A stretch of 55,128 bases of DNA from a virus. Its lineage: Duplodnaviria; Caudoviricetes. The number at the start of each line of letters is the position of its first letter. The first letter of the stretch is position 1. Positions 1,041-36,647 of this stretch are shown here, one piece after another. The DNA lies in the IMG/VR virus record IMGVR_UViG_3300034126_000032, positions 1 through 55,128 of that record; one strand, given 5' to 3'. The notes under the pieces are model-generated. The model searched no databases, had not been told where the DNA came from, and saw only the letters and a program-made list of their open reading frames with translations. The translations under genes were made by a program, and so were the position numbers.

Positions 1041-1733
1041 ATGGCTAATCTGCTTTGCGCCAAACCACTACAAGGCGACACCATGCGTGTTACCCGCCTT
1101 GATGAGTGCGGTAACCCGGAGTATGGGGACTGTGCGTTCGCCGTGTCCGACGGGTTCATCTCCATCACGTTGACCCCGAATGTGGAGGATGGTGAGCGGT
1201 TCCTGGCGCGGAATGCTGCCGGGCGGGCCATCATCAATCAGCGTGCCGCCCCAGCGTTGAACTGGTACGACGTGACCATGGTGTTCCAAGAAGTCGACTT
1301 CGAGCTGTTCACGATCATCACCGGGCTGCTCCCGTACATGGATGATGCGAACCATGTGATCGGTTTCCCCGTCACCGAAGAGCACTACGCCACCGCGAAC
1401 TTCGCCCTGGAAGCGTGGATGGGTAACGCGGAAGAGGAATGCCTTCCCGGTGACCCGTACCCGTTCTTCGGGTACAACCTGCTCCCATGGGTTGTCGAAG
1501 GCGCCCTGTCCGAAGACTTGGTGATCACGAATGATCTGATCACGTTCACCGTCGCCGGGCGCACCCGCAAGGGCACCCCGTGGGGTGTCGGCCCATACGA
1601 CGTGGTCCGCAACGCCACCAACCACCCGCATCACCTGTTCACGCCTATCCCGACGGATACGCATGATCTGCAGATCTGGACCCAGTTGGCACCACCGCTG
1701 CCGGAATGCGGCTGCACTTCGTTGTCGAGTTAG
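1041..1733 (+). CDS. Major tail (tube) protein, copy 1
   Basis: MRVTRLDECG motif typical of actinophage tail-tube proteins; size 230 aa; position; close paralogue at 43672. Confidence 0.75.
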   Translation: MANLLCAKPLQGDTMRVTRLDECGNPEYGDCAFAVSDGFISITLTPNVEDGERFLARNAAGRAIINQRAAPALNWYDVTMVFQEVDFELFTIITGLLPYMDDANHVIGFPVTEEHYATANFALEAWMGNAEEECLPGDPYPFFGYNLLPWVVEGALSEDLVITNDLITFTVAGRTRKGTPWGVGPYDVVRNATNHPHHLFTPIPTDTHDLQIWTQLAPPLPECGCTSLSS

Positions 1734-1773
1734 GTCCTGATGCGCCCGTTGCGGGGTTGGAGGTGCAACGCTG

Positions 1774-3861
1774 ATGGCACGATTGGTAGGACCTGATGAG
1801 GCTAGCCGGCTGGTATATCTAACCAGCGGCCCCAACAAGGGTAAAGCGTCCGCTCAGGGCATGTCCGTCGTCGTCTACGCCGATGCTGGTGCCTCAACCC
1901 TGGCGGACATCCAAACCGTCGGGGGCGCCGCGATCGCCGGTAGCACCCTGCTGGTCGACCCCTGGTCGAAGATTCCCCTGTTCTTGTTCCCCGATAACGT
2001 CGACACCGTGTACGCGGTGGTGTCCGGTGGGCCGGTGGTGCCGCTGTATGCCCGCACCGACGACCGTTTGGACACCCTGGAAACTACGGTGGCCGGCCTT
2101 GGCGGTGCCGCCGTCCTGTCCGTGGGAACAACCCCGGGGACTGTTGCGGCCGGGGATGATTCCCGGATTATCGGGGCGGCACAGAAAGCGTCGAACCTGT
2201 CCGACCTCGCCAGCGCGGGTGCGGCCCGCACAAACCTCGGTTTGGGTACGGCTGCCACAACGGCAGCCGGCGATTACGACCCGGCAGGGGCAGCCGCTTC
2301 CGCGCAGGCCACGGCAGTCCAGCGTGCGAATCACACCGGTACCCAGTCGGCTGACACTCTGACCGACGGGACCACGAACAAGGCGTTCCTGGCCACGGAG
2401 CGCACGAAACTGGCCGGGGTCGCCGCAGGCGCCACCGCCAACGCCACGGACGCGCAACTCCGAGACCGGGCCACGCACACCGGTACCCAGGCCACCAGCA
2501 CGGTCACCGGCCTGGACACGGCGCTGGCTGCGCTGGGTGCTTTCGGAGGAAACCTCGCCGCACTGTTCGGTGACTCGCTGGCGAACAACGGTGACGGCGT
2601 CGCGTACTGGATTGCGGCTCTGACCAACCAGAAGTTCTGCTTTACCTCTGTCGGGGGTTATATCAACTACCACCCCGGATACACGTCGTCGCAGATCGTA
2701 GCCTTGACTACGCAGATCACCGCGCTCAGCCCTCGCCCCCGATACTGCTTCATTTCCGCAGGCAGCAACGACGCAGCCACCGGCGTCACGTCCGCGACAT
2801 TCCTGGCCAACATCACATCGATTTGCGATGCGTTGCTCGCCGCGCGCATCCTGCCCGTCATCATGGGACCGCCCCCGCGCACGGGGGTATTCGGACTGGT
2901 CGCTGAATACAACCTGCGGCTTTACCGGTACGCCAGCTCCACCGGAATACCATTCCTGGACCAGTATTCGATCCTGGTGGACCCGGCCACCGGTGGCTAC
3001 CTGGCTGCCTACGACTCTGGCGACGGGACCCATCCGTCGCCAGCAGGGTGCAAGGCCATTGCCACCAAGGCTGCAACCGACCTGGCGCCCCTGGCCTCAC
3101 CGGCGTTGAACCTGGCAGGACTAGCGATGTCCGCGGGCAACGTCACACCGCAGGCTGCGAACCTTCTAGACACCGACAGCAACGGGGTCGGAGACGCCTA
3201 CGGGGTGACACCTTCCTCGGGATTCGCCTATTCCAGGATCGCAGACAGCCGGGGTTGGTACTGGCAGCGGATGACCCTATCCTCTGCTGCTGGTGCCAAA
3301 ACTGTCAACGGTAGCAATCTCGTACTCCCGCTGCTATCCACAACGCTAGCAGCAAGCGCGTCGATTGGGGCAGTTACGCTGTCTACCGTGGGGACTGCGA
3401 CAGTTGGCGGCGCCATGTACAAGCTGTCTGGTCCCAACGGTTCTTATGAAATCGTTCGGGCAAACTCCGTGTCCGGATCCGGGCCGTTCACTGTCACCTT
3501 GTCCGCGCTTACGCCGCTGAAGATGGCCCACTCTGCTGGAGACACACTCACCCCGTTTGCTGCTATTGGTGACACCCTAGCGTTCGCTGTTAGGGTCCGC
3601 TCCGGTCAAGATCAGGCCACTCTCGCTCCCCAGTTCACGATGTACACGGCTGCGCAGGCATCCGTCACCCGAAACGTGATCATGACGTCTCCGAACACCG
3701 TGTACGGATTCCGGAGACAACTGGAAGACGGACTGCTCTACGCCGAAGCGGTCATCCCAGCCAGCACGGTCAGTATCCAGTTTTCATTCACCGCAGGCCC
3801 CGAAAACGGAACCTACGATTTTGCTCTGCCATACATCGCTAACCTTTCGGCTATCGCTTAG
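1774..3861 (+). CDS. Virion-associated SGNH/GDSL esterase with fibre-like N-terminus
   Basis: FGDSL (block I), SAGSND (block III), DGTHPS (block V); N-terminal ARTNLGLG/RANHTGTQ fibre motifs. Confidence 0.8.
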   Translation: MARLVGPDEASRLVYLTSGPNKGKASAQGMSVVVYADAGASTLADIQTVGGAAIAGSTLLVDPWSKIPLFLFPDNVDTVYAVVSGGPVVPLYARTDDRLDTLETTVAGLGGAAVLSVGTTPGTVAAGDDSRIIGAAQKASNLSDLASAGAARTNLGLGTAATTAAGDYDPAGAAASAQATAVQRANHTGTQSADTLTDGTTNKAFLATERTKLAGVAAGATANATDAQLRDRATHTGTQATSTVTGLDTALAALGAFGGNLAALFGDSLANNGDGVAYWIAALTNQKFCFTSVGGYINYHPGYTSSQIVALTTQITALSPRPRYCFISAGSNDAATGVTSATFLANITSICDALLAARILPVIMGPPPRTGVFGLVAEYNLRLYRYASSTGIPFLDQYSILVDPATGGYLAAYDSGDGTHPSPAGCKAIATKAATDLAPLASPALNLAGLAMSAGNVTPQAANLLDTDSNGVGDAYGVTPSSGFAYSRIADSRGWYWQRMTLSSAAGAKTVNGSNLVLPLLSTTLAASASIGAVTLSTVGTATVGGAMYKLSGPNGSYEIVRANSVSGSGPFTVTLSALTPLKMAHSAGDTLTPFAAIGDTLAFAVRVRSGQDQATLAPQFTMYTAAQASVTRNVIMTSPNTVYGFRRQLEDGLLYAEAVIPASTVSIQFSFTAGPENGTYDFALPYIANLSAIA

Positions 3862-4846: not shown

Positions 4847-5034
4847 TGGATACCAAGGTGTGTCAGTTCTGCTGGGCGGTGGTAGCTACCCGGATGGCTG
4901 AAGCCCACGAGGAGTGGCACATGCGGATCTCCGAGGTGGCGATAGAAAACACCAAGCGGATCGATGCCGTGGTTCAATCGCTGACTTCCCTGCTTCAAGG
5001 GCTTGCGGAGGATGATGGCGATGGTCGTCGCTGA
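4843..5034 (+). CDS. Small hypothetical protein (CxxC/HxxWH)
   Basis: ATGA overlap with upstream gene. Confidence 0.5.
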   Translation: MMDTKVCQFCWAVVATRMAEAHEEWHMRISEVAIENTKRIDAVVQSLTSLLQGLAEDDGDGRR

Positions 5035-5569
5035 TCCGCTGGTCATGCCGTTGGCGCGGGAAATGCTGGCCTGCTTGGACCAGGAAATCCTGAAAGTCAC
5101 CAACCCGCCCACATACGTACAACTCCGCCCCGGCAGCATCACCGACCACCTGCTATCCACCCACCAGGACGAGTGCTGCGAAGGCCTGGCATGGGTGCGC
5201 CCGGACGCGTTCTACCCCGCCTCCGGGGCGTTCCCCGCCCAAGACTCGGCCCCACTACCCAAGGGCACCCTCGCTTGGGCGGTCACGCTCGAGCTCGGGG
5301 TGGTCCGGTGCGCGCCAACCCCCGACGAACACCGCATCCCCACCGCCGCGGAATGGGATGACACCACCCAAGCAGTCATGGACGATGCTGCGGCGATGAG
5401 GCGGGCGATCTGTTGTTTCATCGACGGCGCCCCGGGCCGGGCCCGGCTGGTGTTGCCGGGGTTGTGGCAACCGTTGTCGGTGCAGGGTGGGTGTGTGGGT
5501 GGGATCCTGCCCGTTACCGTCCGCGGTCAAGCCTGCGACTGCTCCGAAGCCGGATACAGTTCGTCATGA
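5021..5569 (+). CDS. Tail terminator / head-tail connector
   Basis: CCEGLAWVR, ELGVVRCAP, QGGCVGG motifs; position. Confidence 0.6.
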   Translation: MVVADPLVMPLAREMLACLDQEILKVTNPPTYVQLRPGSITDHLLSTHQDECCEGLAWVRPDAFYPASGAFPAQDSAPLPKGTLAWAVTLELGVVRCAPTPDEHRIPTAAEWDDTTQAVMDDAAAMRRAICCFIDGAPGRARLVLPGLWQPLSVQGGCVGGILPVTVRGQACDCSEAGYSSS

Positions 5570-5597
5570 GCAGTCGGGTAGGGCCGGGGTGTCAAGC

Positions 5598-5626
5598 TTG
5601 ATACATTGTATGGTTGCCTGTAACGT
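5598..5626 (+). promoter_or_regulatory. Sigma70/HrdB-type promoter
   Basis: TTGATA-17nt(ending GCCTG)-TAACGT. Confidence 0.65.
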
Positions 5627-5631
5627 TGGGA

Positions 5632-5890
5632 ATGAGCGGTCCGACGTTCGCCCACGACCGGTCTGAACAACTCAAGGCGGACGCCCCATGCGGACGGGGT
5701 AAAGAGGTCCGATGCACCAGGGCTCCGGTAGCGCAGGAGGACGGACGTCGCGCCAACAGAGCGGGCCGGAGCCCGCACCAAGGTCAGGGGCGCTGGAGGG
5801 CGCAGGCAGGCGATGCCGACCAGTCCCCCTGACCGCACCTAGACCGCAAATAGCCCCCGGGTGTGTCAAAACTCCGGGGGCCACCGCTCT
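5632..5890 (+). ncRNA. Candidate structured non-coding RNA
   Basis: Follows promoter; nested complementary stems; three hairpins each followed by GCACC; 5'/3' closing stem GAGCGGT/ACCGCTC. Confidence 0.55.
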
Positions 5891-5945
5891 ATCTACCCAC
5901 AACTTTACAGCCATCACGTCAGCGATTACAAGGGGTGCATGTCCG

Positions 5946-6359
5946 GTGGCGCACAGCCTGACCGTTGACCGGCTCAAACTCCAAGGCGTCGGCATGGACA
6001 CGGCACGGAAAGCCGTCAACCGGGTAGTCCGCCGCACCTTCAACCGCTCCCAAGTCCTGTGCCCCGTCGACACCGGCCTACTCCGCGCGTCCGGGCGCAT
6101 GGACTTGGGCAAAGACCGGGGGATGCTGGTCATCGGCGGGGTCACCTACACGGCGGAGTATGCGGCGGCGGTGCATGAGGGCCGCCGGGCTTTGACGATC
6201 AGGGCGAAACGGCCTGGTGGGAAACTCCGGTTCGTGGTGGACGGCAAGGTGGTGTACGCGAAGGCGGTGCATCAGCCGGCCCGGAAGGGCCGCCCGTACC
6301 TGTCCACCGCGTTACGTGAGGTAGCCGCCCAGGAAGGCTTCACGGTGACCATCCGCTGA
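5946..6359 (+). CDS. HK97 gp10-like tail completion protein
   Basis: CPVDTGLLRAS, YAAAVHEG, HQPARKGRPYL motifs; GTG start with upstream AGGGG. Confidence 0.75.
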   Translation: MAHSLTVDRLKLQGVGMDTARKAVNRVVRRTFNRSQVLCPVDTGLLRASGRMDLGKDRGMLVIGGVTYTAEYAAAVHEGRRALTIRAKRPGGKLRFVVDGKVVYAKAVHQPARKGRPYLSTALREVAAQEGFTVTIR

Positions 6360-20943: not shown

Positions 20944-21263
20944 ACGACGAAACCCGCAAGATCGCACTGGACCGGGAAGCCGTCATCGACCTCATGGACG
21001 GCAAACCCACCACCCTGCACGCCGGCATCGAGCGGTACCGGATCGAGGTGGCGGGTCGTGACGAGTTGCAGTCACGAGATCGGATCCTGGCCGAGCTGGG
21101 GATGCTGCTGGCGTACCCATGGCCCGGCGAACACCCAGACCTGCGCGCGAGCATTGAGGCGTATGAGGATGAGCTAGCCACCGCGGTGGCCCTGGCCCCC
21201 GGCGACTGTGAGGCCCGTGCCATGGCCGAGGTCGTGGACCGGCTCTTCACCCTGCTCCGCTGA
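20940..21263 (+). CDS. Hypothetical protein
   Basis: Coupled start/stop, high GC3. Confidence 0.6.
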   Translation: MNDETRKIALDREAVIDLMDGKPTTLHAGIERYRIEVAGRDELQSRDRILAELGMLLAYPWPGEHPDLRASIEAYEDELATAVALAPGDCEARAMAEVVDRLFTLLR

Positions 21264-21448
21264 TGAGCCAGGAACAGGCCACCAACCGGTGGCTCATGTG
21301 GATGCTGATCTCGGCGATGTTCCTACGTAACGGGTTCCGGGATGAGATCAGCGATGGGTGGATGACGGCCAGCTCCGTCGTGTTCCTGGTGGCTGTATGT
21401 GGCATCTTCGTCCATCAGGTTCTTGCGGATGGCAGGAATCGGGTCTGA
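21263..21448 (+). CDS. Small two-TM membrane protein
   Basis: TGATG overlaps, hydrophobic. Confidence 0.55.
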   Translation: MSQEQATNRWLMWMLISAMFLRNGFRDEISDGWMTASSVVFLVAVCGIFVHQVLADGRNRV

Positions 21449-21651
21449 TGGCCGGCGAGATCGTCCAGACCGCGTACGTCGGCCGCACGCACCGCCCGTG
21501 CGGGGCGTGCCGCGAGCTGGTGTGGATTCCTGAGGGGTGCCCGCATTTTCATGCTGGCCGGGTTTCTAAGACGAGGCAGCAGAGGAATGATGCTGCCCGG
21601 AAACAGTCGCGGCGGGATGTTGCCGCGTTCCAAGCAATGATCTACTTCTGA
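21448..21651 (+). CDS. Small Zn-finger-like hypothetical protein
   Basis: CGAC...CPH; TGATG overlap. Confidence 0.5.
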   Translation: MAGEIVQTAYVGRTHRPCGACRELVWIPEGCPHFHAGRVSKTRQQRNDAARKQSRRDVAAFQAMIYF

Positions 21652-21675
21652 CTATGTGGAAGGCGTACATCTCAA

Positions 21676-21921
21676 GTGAGTTGCGTCCATTTGACTCGTT
21701 GTTTCGATTGTGAAGAGCATGGTTCTGGTTTTAACGTGTCCGGCCCTGATGGGGTTCTGACGTATGACGGTGGTCATCTGCACGTGGCTGGTGATCTACC
21801 GGCGTGGTCGGTTGCGTCTGGGTTCACCTCGTCGGCGCAGGCTGCTTTGCAGCATGGTGGTGACACGGAGTTGTGGGCGTTCTTGGAGTTCCACTACCTG
21901 GACATGTTGGCTGACGCCTGA
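21676..21921 (+). CDS. Hypothetical protein
   Basis: ORF with GGAAGG upstream. Confidence 0.45.
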   Translation: MSCVHLTRCFDCEEHGSGFNVSGPDGVLTYDGGHLHVAGDLPAWSVASGFTSSAQAALQHGGDTELWAFLEFHYLDMLADA

Positions 21922-21944
21922 CCGGCAAGTTGAAAGGAGCTGCT

Positions 21945-22184
21945 GTGAAGTTTCGTGTTCTGCTGAAGTCGACTGTCACCACCTGGGTCGACGTGGAGGT
22001 AAACCCTGTTCCGGGTGCGAGTGAGGATGACCTACGGGAATGGGCTGCTAACGACGCGCTTGGCTTCGGGGCTGAAGATTTCGCTTGCCGGCTTGACGCT
22101 GCCGGGTTTGAGCATGACCCGGTCGAATTGGCCTATGAGGAACTCGATGAGAGCGTGCAGCGTTTCGTGCCGCTTGAGGATTGA
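21945..22184 (+). CDS. Acidic hypothetical protein
   Basis: GAAAGGAG RBS before GTG. Confidence 0.6.
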   Translation: MKFRVLLKSTVTTWVDVEVNPVPGASEDDLREWAANDALGFGAEDFACRLDAAGFEHDPVELAYEELDESVQRFVPLED

Positions 22185-22252
22185 CCGTTTCTTTGCAGGC
22201 GTCCCTGTCGTTGGACACACCAGACATACCAACAGACGACAGGAGCGGCCCG

Positions 22253-22570
22253 ATGCGAATCCAAACCACCATCACCGACATGAGCGGCGACCAATGGGTC
22301 GTAGCCCAGGGGATCCTAACCGCCGAGTACGACATCCCCGCAGATGCGACCCGGGTTTGTCTCACCCTGGACCATGAGGGGGAGGACCGGCATGTGGGGA
22401 TCCCGTTGGGTGCGTACATCGGTTTGCTCGGTGCCCTGGGTATGGACAGTCTGACCCGAGGGTTGTTGACTGCGATGGCTGTGTTGACCCCGGATGCGTT
22501 TCCTGGTGAGTTGAGCCCGGATGTGTTCTCGGAGGATGTTGCCGGGGCTTCCACCCTTGATGCCATGTGA
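22253..22570 (+). CDS. Hypothetical protein
   Basis: AGGAG RBS before ATG. Confidence 0.6.
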   Translation: MRIQTTITDMSGDQWVVAQGILTAEYDIPADATRVCLTLDHEGEDRHVGIPLGAYIGLLGALGMDSLTRGLLTAMAVLTPDAFPGELSPDVFSEDVAGASTLDAM

Positions 22571-34130: not shown

Positions 34131-36622
34131 TGGACTTGGCAGCCAAGTATCTGAAACGTACCCGGATCAGACGCTGGTACGACTCACCCACATGCTGGGC
34201 CCAAGACTGCCTCCCGAACGTGAACCTGGCCGGGTATCAAGGGGAAGTGCTGGACGCTCTCCCCCAACGGAAGAGAGTGGCCCTACGCGGGCCGCATGGC
34301 CTGGGAAAAGCGAGTACACTTTCTACCGTGCTTACCACTCCCGTGGGATGGACCACGATAGAAGACGTCCAGATCGGTGACCAGGTCCTAGACGAGAACG
34401 GCAAGCCCTGCCGCGTAACCAGAAAGTCACCGATCTGGATTGGGCCGACGTATGAACTGGAGTTCGCCAACGGTGCGGTAGAGACGGTGCATGGCGAGCA
34501 TGAGTGGAACGTGATCGACGTCTACGACCGGCCAAGAGGAATCATCGATTGGCGCGACCACTGGGCCGCCACCCGTACCCGGACCACCGCGCACCTAGCC
34601 GAGACGCTGCGGACTAAGGGTGGTCAGCTCAGATGGCGGGTACCGACCGCCCAGCCGTTGGAACTACCAACCCAACTCGGATTAACGGTGGACCCGTACA
34701 CGCTCGGGATTTGGCTGGGCGATGGATCAACCGACAACGGTTCCATCTGCATCAACAGGGAAGACTCCGGGCTCATCTCGTCGCGCCTTATGAAGGGCCA
34801 CTTCGTACCGTCCGGGGAACGTCGCGAGGGCTCTCGGATCTACCGAATCCCCGGCCTGATGGCCCAACTCAGAACCCTCGGCGTGCTAGGCAACAAGCAC
34901 ATCCCGATGGCCTACCTCCGGGCGTCTATCGAACAGCGTCAGGAGCTAGTGCGTGGACTCTGGGACTCAGACGGTTACCGGCAGGCAAGCGGCTCCGACG
35001 AGATCACCCTGACCAACAAGCGGTTAGCCGATGACGTCGCCGAGCTGCTGCGCACGCTCGGCCTAGTAGTCCGGATGAATGTAGGTCGGGCCAGAATCGG
35101 GGACGTCGACTACGGCCCGAAGTATCGGATTGGTGTTCGGTTCGATTTCAACCCGTACCACCTCCTCCGCTACGACTGGGTGCCACGCGGAGCCCAGGCG
35201 TCCCGGCATACCCAGCACACGATCGTTGACATTCGGCGCGTAGCCGACCAGCCGACACAGTGCATAGAGGTGGACTCACCGAGCCACCTTTACCTGACCG
35301 GGGAGGCGATGATCCCCACGCACAACAGCTTCTTAGGCGCGGTCCTGGTGAACTGGTTCGCGACGACGAGGAATATGGCCGGCCGCGACTGGAAAATCAT
35401 CACCACCGCGTCAGCCTGGCGCCACCTCGAGGTGTACCTGTGGCCGGAAATCCACAAATGGGCCGGGTGCATCGACTTCGGCATCCTCGGTATGGCCCCG
35501 TACAACCCGCGCACCGAGCTGTTGGACCTGCGGCTGAAACTGTCCTGCGGGGCGGCCACCGCCGTGGCCTCCAACCAGCCGGAGAGGATCGAGGGTGCTC
35601 ACGCGGGGGAGCTGCTGTACCTGCTCGATGAGGCGAAGATTGTGCCGCCGGCCACCTGGGACTCGATCGAGGGCGCGTTTTCGAACGCGGGCCCGGAAAC
35701 CGCGGACAACGCGTACGCGTTCGCCATGAGCACACCGGGCCCGCCGTCCGGCAGGTTTTATGAAATTCACCGGCGGGCGCCCGGGTATGAGGACTGGTGG
35801 ACCCGCCACGTCACCATCGACGAGGCCGTCGAGGCTGGGCGGATCTCCCGAACCTGGGTGGACCAGCGGCGCCTACAGTGGGGTGCCGACTCCGCCGTCT
35901 ACCACAACCGGGTCCTCGGCGAGTTCCACGCCAGTGATGAGGACTCCGTCATCCCCCTCGCCTGGTTGGAAGCGGCCATCGAACGGTGGCACGACTGGGA
36001 CCGCGCCGGCCGCCCCTCACCCGGCGGCCCGCTCTGGACCGGTGTTGACGTCGGCCGCGGTGGCGACGAATCCGTTCTCGCCCATAGGGACGGTTGGGCA
36101 ATCACCCTCGAAGGCAACCGGCGTAGGGACACCATGTCCCAAGTCGCCGCCCTGCAAGGATTGGACGGCAGGGCAATCATCGACGTGATCGGTGTCGGTG
36201 CGGGGGTGTATGACCGGTTGCGTGAAACCGGGGCCCGGCCGCTCGCCTATACGGGGTCAAGTAGGGCAAATGTGAGAGATCGGTCAAATCGCTACGGTTT
36301 TGCGAACTGCCGGAGCGCAGCCTATTGGAATTTGCGCGAGCTGTTGGATCCGGCGTATGAGCCGATGCTGGCGTTACCCCCGGACGATTTGATGATCTCT
36401 GATCTGACTACCCCGACGTGGAGTGTGGTTACGGGGACTCCGCCGAAGTACCAGGTGGAGACGAAGGACAAGGTGGTCGAGCGGCTGGGCCGGAGTCCTG
36501 ACCGCGGTGACGCCATAGCCATGAGCCTGTGGGCTGATCGGCATCAGGGTGCCGGATCGTTCGCCGAACCGGTCGGGTCGATGCCGGTGACCAGCCTGAG
36601 TCCGGCCCGGCTGACCGGTTGA
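34130..36622 (+). CDS. terL: Terminase large subunit containing an intein
   Basis: GPHGLGK|S Walker A, LLDEA Walker B, STP, GVDVGRGGD, SPDRGDA nuclease motifs. Confidence 0.95.
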   Translation: MDLAAKYLKRTRIRRWYDSPTCWAQDCLPNVNLAGYQGEVLDALPQRKRVALRGPHGLGKASTLSTVLTTPVGWTTIEDVQIGDQVLDENGKPCRVTRKSPIWIGPTYELEFANGAVETVHGEHEWNVIDVYDRPRGIIDWRDHWAATRTRTTAHLAETLRTKGGQLRWRVPTAQPLELPTQLGLTVDPYTLGIWLGDGSTDNGSICINREDSGLISSRLMKGHFVPSGERREGSRIYRIPGLMAQLRTLGVLGNKHIPMAYLRASIEQRQELVRGLWDSDGYRQASGSDEITLTNKRLADDVAELLRTLGLVVRMNVGRARIGDVDYGPKYRIGVRFDFNPYHLLRYDWVPRGAQASRHTQHTIVDIRRVADQPTQCIEVDSPSHLYLTGEAMIPTHNSFLGAVLVNWFATTRNMAGRDWKIITTASAWRHLEVYLWPEIHKWAGCIDFGILGMAPYNPRTELLDLRLKLSCGAATAVASNQPERIEGAHAGELLYLLDEAKIVPPATWDSIEGAFSNAGPETADNAYAFAMSTPGPPSGRFYEIHRRAPGYEDWWTRHVTIDEAVEAGRISRTWVDQRRLQWGADSAVYHNRVLGEFHASDEDSVIPLAWLEAAIERWHDWDRAGRPSPGGPLWTGVDVGRGGDESVLAHRDGWAITLEGNRRRDTMSQVAALQGLDGRAIIDVIGVGAGVYDRLRETGARPLAYTGSSRANVRDRSNRYGFANCRSAAYWNLRELLDPAYEPMLALPPDDLMISDLTTPTWSVVTGTPPKYQVETKDKVVERLGRSPDRGDAIAMSLWADRHQGAGSFAEPVGSMPVTSLSPARLTG
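34310..35326 (+). mobile_element. Intein (339 aa, Ala1, class-3-type) with LAGLIDADG homing endonuclease
   Basis: Starts ASTLST after GLGK; HEW block B; LGIWLGDG and LVRGLWDSDG; QCIEVD block F; ends PTHN|S. Confidence 0.9.
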
Positions 36623-36647
36623 CACTTGCCCGTCACGCCTGTAAGGT
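36619..36647 (+). promoter_or_regulatory. Consensus sigma70 promoter for leaderless gene
   Basis: TTGACA-17nt-TAAGGT, ATG 7 nt downstream. Confidence 0.8.

What the first reader, a model, noticed from the sequence alone, without database searches (positions are those of the whole stretch)
5598..5890. Promoter-driven multi-branch RNA with three hairpin+GCACC units hidden in the tail operon
Seen: TTGATA-17-TAACGT promoter, then about 255 nt with 5'/3' closing stem GAGCGGT(5634-40)/ACCGCTC(5883-89) and inner stem CGGTCTG(5659-65)/TAGACCG(5840-46). The inner stem encloses three hairpins: CGGAC/GTCCG (5678-5711), GGGCTCCGG/CCGGAGCCC (5720-5774) and GGTCAGGGG/CCCCTGACC (5782-5834). They are followed by GCACCA, GCACCA and GCACCT. 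A fourth hairpin lies at 5853-5881. Each hairpin interior contains GGA. The overlapping ORFs look non-protein-like. Inference: an undescribed phage ncRNA with repeated single-stranded motifs, e.g. a protein sponge (CsrA-type GGA), an RNase decoy or antitoxin mimic processed at GCACC, or tRNA-3'-end (ACCA) mimics. The function is speculative.
Basis: partly seen in the sequence, partly recalled or inferred. Interest (0 to 1): 0.8.

Follow-up and report, generated by a model that had tools for sequence, protein, structure and literature searches.

The report
Modular pseudoknot RNA cassette in actinophage
A soil phage carries, between two virion genes, a small inserted cassette with its own promoter that makes a folded non-coding RNA; its first part is a double knot also found in relatives of Actinoplanes phage phiAsp2, in no RNA catalogue searched, and its job is unknown.

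Summary

- **Cassette.** An empty-site contig from another soil shows that 5573-5845 is a 273-nt insertion into a conserved slot between a phrog_810 gene and the Neck1 gene.
- **Promoter.** The cassette brings a promoter of this phage group's CTGTAANGT class.
- **Unit 1 (5634-5711).** It folds as two consecutive H-type pseudoknots. Across 12 distinct copies, 98.4% of cells pair and 8 of 21 pairs show compensatory changes.
- **Units 2 and 3.** These hairpins follow, joined by GCACCA linkers.
- **Origin.** Units 1 and 2 are copies of modules from a promoter-driven RNA array, rich in tRNA-like elements, downstream of the exonuclease gene of phiAsp2-like phages. There unit 1 always starts 3-4 nt after a tRNA-like 3' end.
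- **Variants.** Other soils hold U1+U3 and U2+U3 forms in the same slot, with the joints in or beside the GCACC(A) linkers.
- **What fails.** Hairpin 1 is mispaired, and the one perfect closing stem is at chance level; both long-range stems overlap helix Pa. Hairpin 4 is ancestral slot sequence.
- **Catalogues.** Rfam and ARAGORN find nothing.

Function is inferred only: a processed, end-protected small RNA. The scan had already flagged a phiAsp2-type array on other DNA (e1-6261244).

The parts
5573..5845 (+). Inserted RNA cassette (273 nt) in the slot between the phrog_810 gene (5003-5569) and the Neck1/tail-completion gene (5946-6359)
   Evidence: A contig of run X2 joins 5572 to 5846 (skips 273, side 90), which is the empty site. 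The 13 relatives L010-L022 share the slot but have no blastn match to 5570-5946.
5598..5626 (+). Promoter TTGATA-N17-TAACGT with the CTGTAANGT -10 word and a GTGTCA half-site upstream; predicted start about 5632-5634
   Evidence: CTGTAANGT occurs 5 times in the window against 0.61 expected. The same word with a TTG..A -35 at 17 nt follows the exonuclease gene in 34 of 46 phiAsp2-like loci. The tool's TATAAT-based scan did not flag it. The start site is inferred.
5634..5711 (+). Unit 1: two consecutive H-type pseudoknots. Pa 5637-5641/5656-5660; Pb 5646-5652/5676-5682; Pc 5684-5687/5696-5699; Pd 5691-5695/5707-5711
   Evidence: In 12 distinct sequences 98.4% of cells pair, 8 of 21 pairs have changes on both sides, and 0 of 500 shuffles reach the covariation score; slid controls pair at 49.8% or less. 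The covariance model scores the window at 109 bits. G-U pairs mark the + strand.
5712..5719 (+). Linker AUGCACCA (first GCACCA at 5714-5719)
   Evidence: GAUGCAC follows Pd in 5 of 10 homologues. The X2 deletion joint falls at 5716/5779, and an X4 contig joins GAUGCACC directly to 5781.
5720..5774 (+). Unit 2: conserved hairpin with a 9-bp outer stem (5720-5728/5766-5774)
   Evidence: Homologues occur in L078/L080, L067, L093 and phiAsp2. The outer stem is 100% paired in 5 of 5, with two G-U transitions in L067 and no compensatory change; 50 columns are invariant. MFE z is -3.23.
5775..5780 (+). Linker GCACCA after unit 2
   Evidence: GCACCA or GTACCG follows unit 2 in 5 of 5 copies. G[CT]ACC[AG]A follows the last hairpin of the array in 23 of 41 phiAsp2-like loci.
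5782..5834 (+). Unit 3: hairpin GGTCAGGGG...CCCCTGACC, followed by GCACCT (5835-5840)
   Evidence: MFE -35.6 kcal/mol, z -3.82. No homologue was found in any fetched locus. Contigs of X2, X3 and X4 cover it at 80% likeness or more.
5853..5881 (.). Ancestral slot hairpin (5853-5861/5873-5881). It is not part of the insertion and is the likely stop for transcription from both sides
   Evidence: Among the window and 5 minimal-gap relatives 94.4% of cells pair, 6 of 9 pairs are compensatory, and 0 of 500 shuffles do as well. There is no U-tract, and the terminator scan did not flag it.
5902..5931 (-). Conserved minus-strand slot promoter TTGTAA-N18-TAAAGT, facing the cassette
   Evidence: It is the only match to TTG-N18-CTGTAANGT in the window. 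The same type lies on the minus strand in 11 of 13 relatives. In L010, L012 and L019 a leaderless 52-54-aa ORF starts 6 nt after it.

Best explanation
**What it is (shown).** The stretch holds a 273-nt mobile RNA cassette (5573-5845) inserted in a hot-spot slot of a phiAsp2-like actinophage.
- It has its own promoter and is read on the + strand.
- It encodes no protein.
- It consists of interchangeable folded modules: unit 1, a stacked double pseudoknot; unit 2; and unit 3. GCACC(A) linkers join them.
- It runs into the old slot hairpin at 5853-5881.
- Units 1 and 2 and the promoter are copies of parts of a long RNA array, rich in tRNA-like elements, that phiAsp2-like phages transcribe ahead of gene pas50.

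**How it works (inferred).** The array and the cassette are RNA operons cut into small stable RNAs by the host's tRNA-processing enzymes.
- In the array, a tRNA-like cloverleaf ends 3-4 nt before unit 1, so cutting at the tRNA 3' end, as RNase Z does, would leave unit 1 at a new 5' end.
- In the cassette, the promoter places the transcription start at the same point.
- The double pseudoknot would then act as a 5'-terminal cap that keeps 5'-end-dependent RNases (RNase J, RNase E) off the RNA.
- The helix+GCACCA junctions would serve as tRNA-3'-end-like boundaries for cutting or trimming.

What the released RNAs do afterwards is not known.
For: Shown:
- **Homology.** Window 5639-5780 is 84.6% identical to an unannotated gap of phiAsp2 and 91.8% identical over 146 nt to L078/L080.
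- **Copies of unit 1.** The covariance model finds it in the window and in 13 of the 46 exonuclease loci L056-L101, and in none of the 14 slot loci L010-L023 searched.
- **Covariation.** All four helices show compensatory changes.
- **Extra hairpins.** L074 and L064 carry an additional hairpin exactly in loop L3.
- **Strand.** G-U pairs mark the + strand.
- **Fixed spacing.** A T-loop word ends 14-15 nt before Pa in 13 of 13 non-window copies. tRNA calls end 3-4 nt before Pa in L057, L081 and L087 by ARAGORN, and Rfam tRNA hits abut unit 1 in L081, L078 and L057.
- **Promoter.** It belongs to the group's conserved class.
- **Empty site and variants.** One search shows the empty site and module variants from three other studies:
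  - U1+U3 in X2, with a joint at 5716/5779.
  - In X4, a loose end reading the end of unit 1 runs straight into 5781.
  - U2+U3 in X3, with a joint at 5625/5713 that rebuilds TAACGT right before unit 2.
- **Unpaired changes.** The 3 changes listed inside unit 1 for X2 (5645, 5655, 5665) all lie in unpaired positions.
- **Independence from pas50.** The window phage lacks homologues of pas46-pas54 yet keeps these modules. In L058/L059 unit 1 is followed directly by the unstructured leader and ribosome-binding site of pas50.
Against: - There are no RNA data. No RNA run was listed, so the start, the ends and any cutting are all inferred.
- The X3 variant lacks unit 1, so the cap cannot be essential to every form. 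That variant rests on one 151-nt contig with a 31-nt side.
- GCACCA is not a canonical minihelix tail: two unpaired letters (G, C) stand between the helix and ACCA, and the 5' flank cannot pair with them.
- In X2 the third GCACC is changed at 5837 and 5838.
- Unit 2 and unit 3 have no compensatory support (no homologue of unit 3 in hand).
- A primary transcript carries a triphosphate end and needs less protection.
- Hairpin 4 has no U-tract on the + strand, so read-through into the Neck1 gene is possible.
Confidence: 0.55

Rival explanations
1. Trans-acting decoy or sponge. The released modules bind and titrate a host factor. For example, they could mimic tRNA acceptor ends (helix + ACCA) to distract enzymes or defence toxins that act on tRNA 3' ends. 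Alternatively, they could present the invariant GGAGGACGGA loop of unit 2 to a protein or to the ribosome.
For: - The cassette works away from pas50 and has its own promoter.
- Loop sequences are invariant (CAACUCA, GUUAAG, GGAGGACGGA), which fits a binding surface.
- Helix+GCACCA recurs in 23 of 41 arrays.
- The arrays are full of tRNA-like modules.
Against: - No partner is known.
- The tail has two extra letters before ACCA.
- From my own knowledge, not tested here, CsrA is not known in actinomycetes.
- Nothing here shows that the modules accumulate.
Confidence: 0.2
2. Cis-acting leader. Unit 1 is a ligand- or protein-sensing aptamer, or an antitermination RNA like put of HK022, that controls expression of the genes behind it: pas50 in the arrays and Neck1 with the tail genes in the window.
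For: - In the arrays the modules lie in the 5' leader of pas50.
- Compact pseudoknots with invariant A-rich loops are typical of small riboswitches. This is my recalled knowledge of SAM-II, preQ1-II and similar classes.
- The hairpins that follow unit 1 vary between phages, as expression platforms do.
Against: - The 3' strand of Pd covaries only with the loop of Pc, not with any following hairpin.
- L058/L059 have no hairpin between unit 1 and a ribosome-binding site about 60 nt away.
- The cassette is followed by a covarying hairpin and a convergent promoter.
- The X3 form lacks unit 1.
- No Rfam riboswitch matches.
Confidence: 0.12
3. Unit 1 is a self-cleaving ribozyme that cuts at its own 5' edge, as HDV-like ribozymes do, to make the 3' end of the tRNA-like RNA in front of it.
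For: - The spacing to the tRNA-like 3' end is fixed in 13 of 13 copies.
- Pa and Pb have the P1/P2 pseudoknot topology.
- The optional hairpin in L074 and L064 sits where P4 would be.
Against: - Only 3 nt (CAC or CAA) lie between Pb 5' and Pa 3', so there is no room for P3, L3 or P1.1.
- No ribozyme family matches, even at E up to 10.
- In the window and in X2 there is nothing upstream to cut off.
Confidence: 0.05
4. In this window the cassette is only a passenger: a scrap of the early array pasted in by illegitimate recombination, with no function of its own at the new site.
For: - None of the 13 IMG/VR slot relatives carries it.
- The insertion is flanked by a 3-nt GCA microhomology.
Against: - Related forms sit in the same slot in contigs of three other studies from 2022-2025.
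- All 21 pairs of unit 1 are intact, and the window scores within 0.1 bit of the best copy in the family (109.1 against 109.2 bits).
- Two different deletions each keep a promoter directly in front of a module.
Confidence: 0.08

Closest known systems
5' leader pseudoknot of phage T4 gene 32 mRNA (recalled knowledge)
   Same: It is a phage RNA with an H-type pseudoknot at the 5' end of a processed, long-lived RNA, followed by an unstructured leader and the ribosome-binding site. This matches unit 1 + CA-rich leader + pas50 in L058/L059.
   Different: T4 has one pseudoknot, not two, and it nucleates binding of gp32. Pas50 matches no SSB family. There is no sequence likeness, and the window copy is not in front of such a gene.
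Pseudoknot arrays next to tRNA-like domains: tmRNA PK2-PK4 and the TMV upstream pseudoknot domain + TLS (recalled knowledge)
   Same: Consecutive H-type pseudoknots that can stack into a rod lie directly beside a tRNA-shaped domain.
   Different: Here the knots lie 3' of a complete cloverleaf. There is no tag reading frame, ARAGORN finds no tmRNA, and the window copy has no tRNA-like part at all.
Non-tRNA substrates of RNase P: helix or pseudoknot followed by 3' RCCA (PMC12710915, abstract seen in a search listing; phage P1/P7 C4 RNA and pre-4.5S RNA, recalled)
   Same: A stable helix is followed by single-stranded ...ACCA. The motif repeats between modules and at the end of the arrays.
   Different: Two unpaired letters (GC) precede ACCA, the word lies inside the RNA and not at its end, and cleavage was not tested.
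Exoribonuclease-resistant RNAs of flaviviruses and plant viruses (search listing only) and 5'-terminal stabiliser hairpins such as ompA (recalled)
   Same: A compact pseudoknotted fold sits a few letters from the 5' end and could stop a 5'-3' nuclease.
   Different: No ring-like fold has been shown, there is no homology, and resistance was not tested. My one search listed only papers on viruses of eukaryotes.
Polycistrons of irregular tRNAs in soil metatranscriptomes (Mukai et al. 2016, PMC5389517, passages read) and this scan's note e1-6261244
   Same: Promoter-driven runs of irregular tRNA-like RNAs occur in soil and peat data. Note e1-6261244 describes a phiAsp2-type gap between the exonuclease gene and the next gene.
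   Different: The published polycistrons are assigned to Acidobacteria, and the paper never uses the word pseudoknot. The module studied here is not tRNA-shaped.

Membership tests
Any Rfam 15 family | Covariance-model match at the gathering score, or any match with E up to 10 | tested here: not met
   The whole window gave 0 matches at gathering score. Positions 5500-6000 gave 0 matches at E up to 10.
tRNA / tmRNA | Cloverleaf with anticodon, or a tRNA-like domain plus a tag frame | tested here: not met
   ARAGORN found 0 genes in the window. tRNA-like parts occur only in the relatives' arrays.
H-type pseudoknot (structural class) | Order S1-S2-S1'-S2', with both stems supported | tested here: met
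   Pa/Pb and Pc/Pd pair in 94.7-100% of cells, and every helix has compensatory changes.
HDV-like self-cleaving ribozyme | Nested double pseudoknot with P3/L3 and P1.1 between the P2 5' strand and the P1 3' strand | tested here: not met
   Only 3 nt lie between Pb 5' and Pa 3' in 12 of 12 sequences. There is no Rfam hit.
Sigma-70-type promoter | -35 and -10 hexamers 16-18 nt apart | tested here: inconclusive
   TTGATA-17-TAACGT is present and belongs to a word class that is enriched and conserved. The consensus scan did not list it, and no start site has been mapped.
Intrinsic terminator | G+C-rich hairpin followed by a U run | tested here: not met
   No terminator-like site is listed at 5853-5881 on the + strand. 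The hairpin itself covaries.
Riboswitch | Aptamer whose 3' part pairs alternatively with an expression platform | tested here: inconclusive
   The 3' strand of Pd covaries with the Pc loop only. L058/L059 have no platform hairpin. Ligand binding cannot be tested here.
RNase P minihelix substrate | Helix immediately followed by single-stranded RCCA | tested here: inconclusive
   ACCA is present after the helices, but two unpaired letters (GC) precede it. Cleavage cannot be tested here.
   GGA words are present, and GGAGGACGGA is invariant in 5 of 5 copies of unit 2. The host is unknown and no host genome is held.

The most novel reading that the evidence does not exclude
Unit 1 is the first phage or bacterial counterpart of the exoribonuclease-resistant RNAs of eukaryotic viruses. 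It would be a stacked double pseudoknot, 3-5 nt from a 5' end made either by a promoter or by tRNA-type cutting, that physically stops RNase J or RNase E and so creates stable RNAs. The whole phiAsp2-type array would then be an operon of such protected mini-RNAs with tRNA-like ACCA tails.
Probability: 0.2. Interest if true: 0.85.

Novelty: new variant of a known kind. Interest (0 to 1): 0.62.

Why it matters
- **A new RNA fold.** It adds a well-supported fold, two stacked pseudoknots in 14 copies (12 distinct), that Rfam does not hold.
- **A shared toolbox.** A group of soil actinophages, one of them cultured (phiAsp2), carries a set of exchangeable RNA modules. These move between an early leader array and a slot in the virion genes.
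- **Position.** The module always sits at a 5' end, made in two different ways. That is an unusual and testable clue to a role in RNA stability or processing in actinomycetes, where RNase J and RNase E act together.

Tried and rejected
- **Host-derived fragment or attachment site.** One scan of genome contigs with a unit 1 word gave 6 loci, all chance matches in unrelated phyla. One scan of metagenome contigs gave 1 locus, a chance match inside a coding region. Both patterns fit only some variants of unit 1, so absence from hosts is not shown.
- **First three IMG/VR word scans.** They found only phiAsp2.
- **Pas50 as a query.** It found only phiAsp2.
- **Degenerate unit 1 pattern.** It found 9 contigs, all already in hand.
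- **Unit 3 stem pattern.** It gave 27 loci, none with any likeness to the cassette.
- **Minus-strand RNA.** Rejected because of the G-U pairs and the orientation in phiAsp2.
- **Protein-coding reading (72-aa + frame; 103- and 157-aa - frames).** Rejected because of indels of 1, 2 and 4 nt and compensatory changes.
- **tmRNA or a tag frame.** Considered by eye and dropped; ARAGORN is negative.
- **My first idea of a target duplication flanking the insert.** Replaced by the empty-site joint.
- **Sequencing runs.** No RNA holder was listed. The runs laid are DNA contigs, and X1 may be the source of the window.
- **GC3-based gene map.** It was too crude to use.
- **Literature.** The listings held no paper that describes this RNA. 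The six papers naming phiAsp2 were seen as a listing only. The phiAsp2 genome paper was not among the papers found. Supplements were not opened.
- **CM hits set aside.** Three weak hits (E 0.22-0.85) were treated as chance.
- **Loci left out of the CM search.** L102-L134 (24-32% exonuclease identity) were covered by blastn and nhmmer but not by the CM search.
Full report
**Setting.** The window is a complete virus record of 55,128 bp with direct terminal repeats.
- The finding lies in a 377-nt gap between a phrog_810 gene (5003-5569) and a Neck1/tail-completion gene. That gene starts with GTG at 5946.
- Rfam finds nothing in the window at gathering scores, and nothing in 5500-6000 at E up to 10.
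- ARAGORN finds no tRNA or tmRNA.

**The observation.**
- The 266-nt stretch folds better than shuffles: z -3.33 on the + strand and -2.63 on the - strand.
- Taken alone, unit 2, unit 3 and hairpin 4 each give z between -3.2 and -3.8.
- Unit 1 alone gives z +0.94, because a nested fold cannot see what is there.
- One perfect 7-nt long-range complement is what shuffles give: mean 0.74, and 42.5% of shuffles have at least one.
- Three GCACC within 125 nt occurs 8 times in the window and in 190 of 200 shuffled genomes.

**Relatives.** Window 5639-5780 is 84.6% identical to an unannotated gap of Actinoplanes phage phiAsp2, between the RecE-like exonuclease gene pas49 and pas50.
- The exonuclease has 255 homologues at E of 1e-20 or better.
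- An alignment of 20 of them fetched 79 IMG/VR loci.
- blastn and nhmmer then found unit 1 (5634-5718) in L078=L080, L081, L066, L072, L056 (phiAsp2), L082, L058=L059, L074, L087, L057 and L064.
- They found unit 2 in L078/L080, L067, L093 and phiAsp2, and found unit 3 nowhere.
- A covariance model built from 10 sequences was run over 61 sources. It gave 14 strong hits (73-109 bits): the window and 13 of the 46 exonuclease loci. It gave none in the 14 slot loci searched.
- A degenerate IMG/VR word scan returned only contigs already known.

**Structure of unit 1.** The homologues show two consecutive H-type pseudoknots:

| Helix | 5' strand | 3' strand |
|---|---|---|
| Pa | 5637-5641 | 5656-5660 |
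| Pb | 5646-5652 | 5676-5682 |
| Pc | 5684-5687 | 5696-5699 |
| Pd (5' strand in the loop of Pc) | 5691-5695 | 5707-5711 |

- On 12 distinct sequences 98.4% of 249 cells pair. Eight of 21 pairs change on both sides (20 cells), and 0 of 500 shuffles reach the covariation score. Sliding the partners drops pairing to 28-50% (the same result on 10 sequences).
- Every helix has at least one compensatory pair.
- L074 and L064 each carry an unrelated extra hairpin exactly in loop L3.
- G-U pairs (8 of 12 at one Pb pair, 5 of 12 at one Pc pair) would be A-C mismatches on the other strand, so the RNA is read on the + strand.
- Both proposed long-range stems overlap Pa.

**Units 2 and 3.**
- Unit 2 is strongly conserved, with 50 invariant columns in 5 sequences. 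Its 9-bp stem always pairs, but only two G-U transitions vary it, so covariation says nothing.
- Unit 3 rests on energy alone and on its presence in other soils.

**The array in relatives.** In phiAsp2-like phages the gap after the exonuclease gene is 20-928 nt in the 41 loci where both genes were found, and about 320-930 nt in 37 of them. It starts with a promoter of one class.
- The promoter has a palindrome TGACAC..GTGTCA, a TTGCNA -35, 17 nt, then CTGTAANGT. The CTGTAANGT word is present in 34 of 46 loci.
- Then come hairpins, one or more tRNA-like elements, various folded modules and a last long hairpin.
- A G[CT]ACC[AG]A word follows in 23 of 41 loci. In 21 of those it lies 34-81 nt before the pas50 start.
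- A CA-rich leader runs on to the ribosome-binding site.
- Rfam calls a tRNA in 4 of 20 loci searched.
- ARAGORN calls + strand tRNAs in the gap in 11 of the 35 loci I gave it (of 46), many with displaced anticodons.
- In 13 of 13 non-window copies a T-loop word ends 14-15 nt before Pa. tRNA calls end 3-4 nt before Pa (L057, L081, L087; L078, L081, L057).

**The slot in the window's closest kin.** Thirteen IMG/VR relatives (65-82% identity in Neck1) keep both flanking genes with gaps of about 110-920 nt. None matches the cassette.
- The minimal gap is a covarying hairpin, 94.4% paired with 6 of 9 pairs compensatory. It is followed by a promoter of the same CTGTAANGT class on the minus strand, matched in 11 of 13.
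- That promoter drives different cargo in different relatives:
  - a leaderless 52-54-aa Cys-rich ORF in L010, L012 and L019;
  - tRNA-like genes in L015 (ARAGORN) and L021 (Rfam);
  - a 169-aa signal-peptide ORF in L020.
- The window keeps both the hairpin (5853-5881) and the minus-strand promoter (5902-5931).

**Other soils.** Laying the contigs of four runs from four studies on 5400-6100 gave the following. X1 may be the window's own source. All of these are DNA contigs of related phages at 80% likeness or more, each resting on a single contig.

| Run | What the contig shows |
|---|---|
| X1 | The whole stretch, identical |
| X2 | A contig joining 5572 to 5846, the empty site, which sets the insertion at 5573-5845 |
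| X2 | A 296-nt contig with the upstream gene end, promoter and unit 1, then a joint 5716/5779, unit 3 and hairpin 4 (no unit 2) |
| X4 | A contig whose loose end reads the end of unit 1 plus GCACC, running straight into 5781 |
| X3 | A 151-nt contig joining 5625 to 5713, which rebuilds TAACGT directly before unit 2 (31-nt side), and a second contig covering 5750-5896 |

- So U1+U2+U3, U1+U3 and U2+U3 forms exist in the same slot, and the joints fall in or beside the GCACC(A) linkers.
- The three changes listed within unit 1 for X2 (5645, 5655, 5665) are all unpaired positions.

**Origin.** The window's promoter aligns with the array promoters, including the GTGTCA half-site.
- CTGTAANGT occurs 5 times in the window against 0.61 expected.
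- The window phage has homologues of pas44 and pas45 but none of pas46-pas54. It has therefore lost the array's home and keeps modules of it elsewhere.
- This argues that the RNA acts on its own, not only as the leader of pas50.

**Mechanism (inference).** Unit 1 stands 3-5 nt from a 5' end in both settings. In the arrays that end follows the tRNA-like 3' end; in the window and in X2 it follows the predicted start. The X3 deletion likewise puts the promoter right before a module.
- I read the array and the cassette as RNA operons that the tRNA-processing machinery cuts up. The double pseudoknot would protect the 5' end, and helix+GCACCA would mark tRNA-end-like boundaries.
- Against this: there are no RNA data, the X3 form lacks unit 1, two extra letters stand before ACCA, and there is no U-tract after hairpin 4.
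- The rivals are a decoy or sponge, a cis-acting leader or riboswitch, a 5'-cutting ribozyme, and a passenger. They are weighed in their own sections.
- Pas50 matches no family, so a T4 gene-32-like autoregulation stays an analogy only.

**Literature.**
- Mukai et al. 2016 (PMC5389517, passages read) describe polycistrons of irregular tRNAs in forest and peat metatranscriptomes. They assign them to Acidobacteria, and the paper never uses the word pseudoknot.
- PMC12710915 (abstract in the listing) reports that RNase P cuts a pseudoknot substrate if it ends in RCCA.
- The listings held no paper on this RNA.
- This scan's note e1-6261244 had flagged a promoter-driven RNA with a tRNA-like domain between the exonuclease gene and the next gene on other DNA. 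That DNA shares 5 of 141 words with this stretch.

**Verdict.** This is a real, new, covariation-supported phage RNA module inside a modular, mobile cassette.

Noticed in passing
L056-L101, about 0-900 nt after the exonuclease gene (e.g. L056 2617-2960): phiAsp2-like phages carry a promoter-driven array of folded RNA modules ahead of pas50. It holds tRNA-like cloverleaves, often called tRNA-Cys(GCA) with a displaced anticodon. One recurrent hairpin has a CCAGAAUC loop and may be a further pseudoknot. A CA-rich leader follows. Module content differs from phage to phage.
   Followed up: partly
window 5902-5931 (-) and L010-L022 just upstream of the Neck1 gene: A conserved minus-strand promoter (TTGACA or TTGTGA, 17-18 nt, TAAGGT or TAAAGT) faces a covarying hairpin inside the virion-gene operon. 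It drives different cargo in different relatives.
   Followed up: partly
L010 about 2280-2445 (-), L012 and L019 likewise: A leaderless 52-54-aa Cys-rich, Arg/Trp-tailed ORF starts 6 nt after the -10 word of the slot promoter. L017 looks the same by eye.
   Followed up: partly
L020 about 1600-2200 (-): A 169-aa ORF with a signal peptide (MFRRVGVMLAAVLLGAGLSAAPAQA...) sits in the same slot. By eye, T-loop-like words lie on the minus strand, though neither ARAGORN nor Rfam calls them.
   Followed up: no
L015 2263-2335 (-); L021 2103-2240 (-): Irregular tRNA genes sit in the slot: tRNA-Cys with anticodon ACA (ARAGORN) and a 138-nt tRNA hit (Rfam, 36.5 bits).
   Followed up: no
L014 about 2230-2470: A different insert of about 250 nt lies between two copies of the minus-strand slot promoter, with its own G+C-rich hairpin. 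It has no likeness to the window cassette.
   Followed up: no
L057-L097, about 25-45 nt upstream of CTGTAANGT: The palindrome TGACAC-N4-GTGTCA abuts the -35 of the array promoter in most loci and looks like an operator. The window cassette keeps only the right half (5589-5594).
   Followed up: no
window 31414, 32523, 36639 (+): Three further CTGTAAGGT promoters. The one at 36620-36647 is TTGACA-17-TAAGGT, with an ATG 8 nt later (36656), which suggests a leaderless gene.
   Followed up: no
window, whole: The phage shares pas44 and pas45 homologues (20958-22516) with phiAsp2 but has no match to pas46-pas54 (RuvC-like, exonuclease, pas50, helicase). Its replication module has therefore been swapped.
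   Followed up: partly
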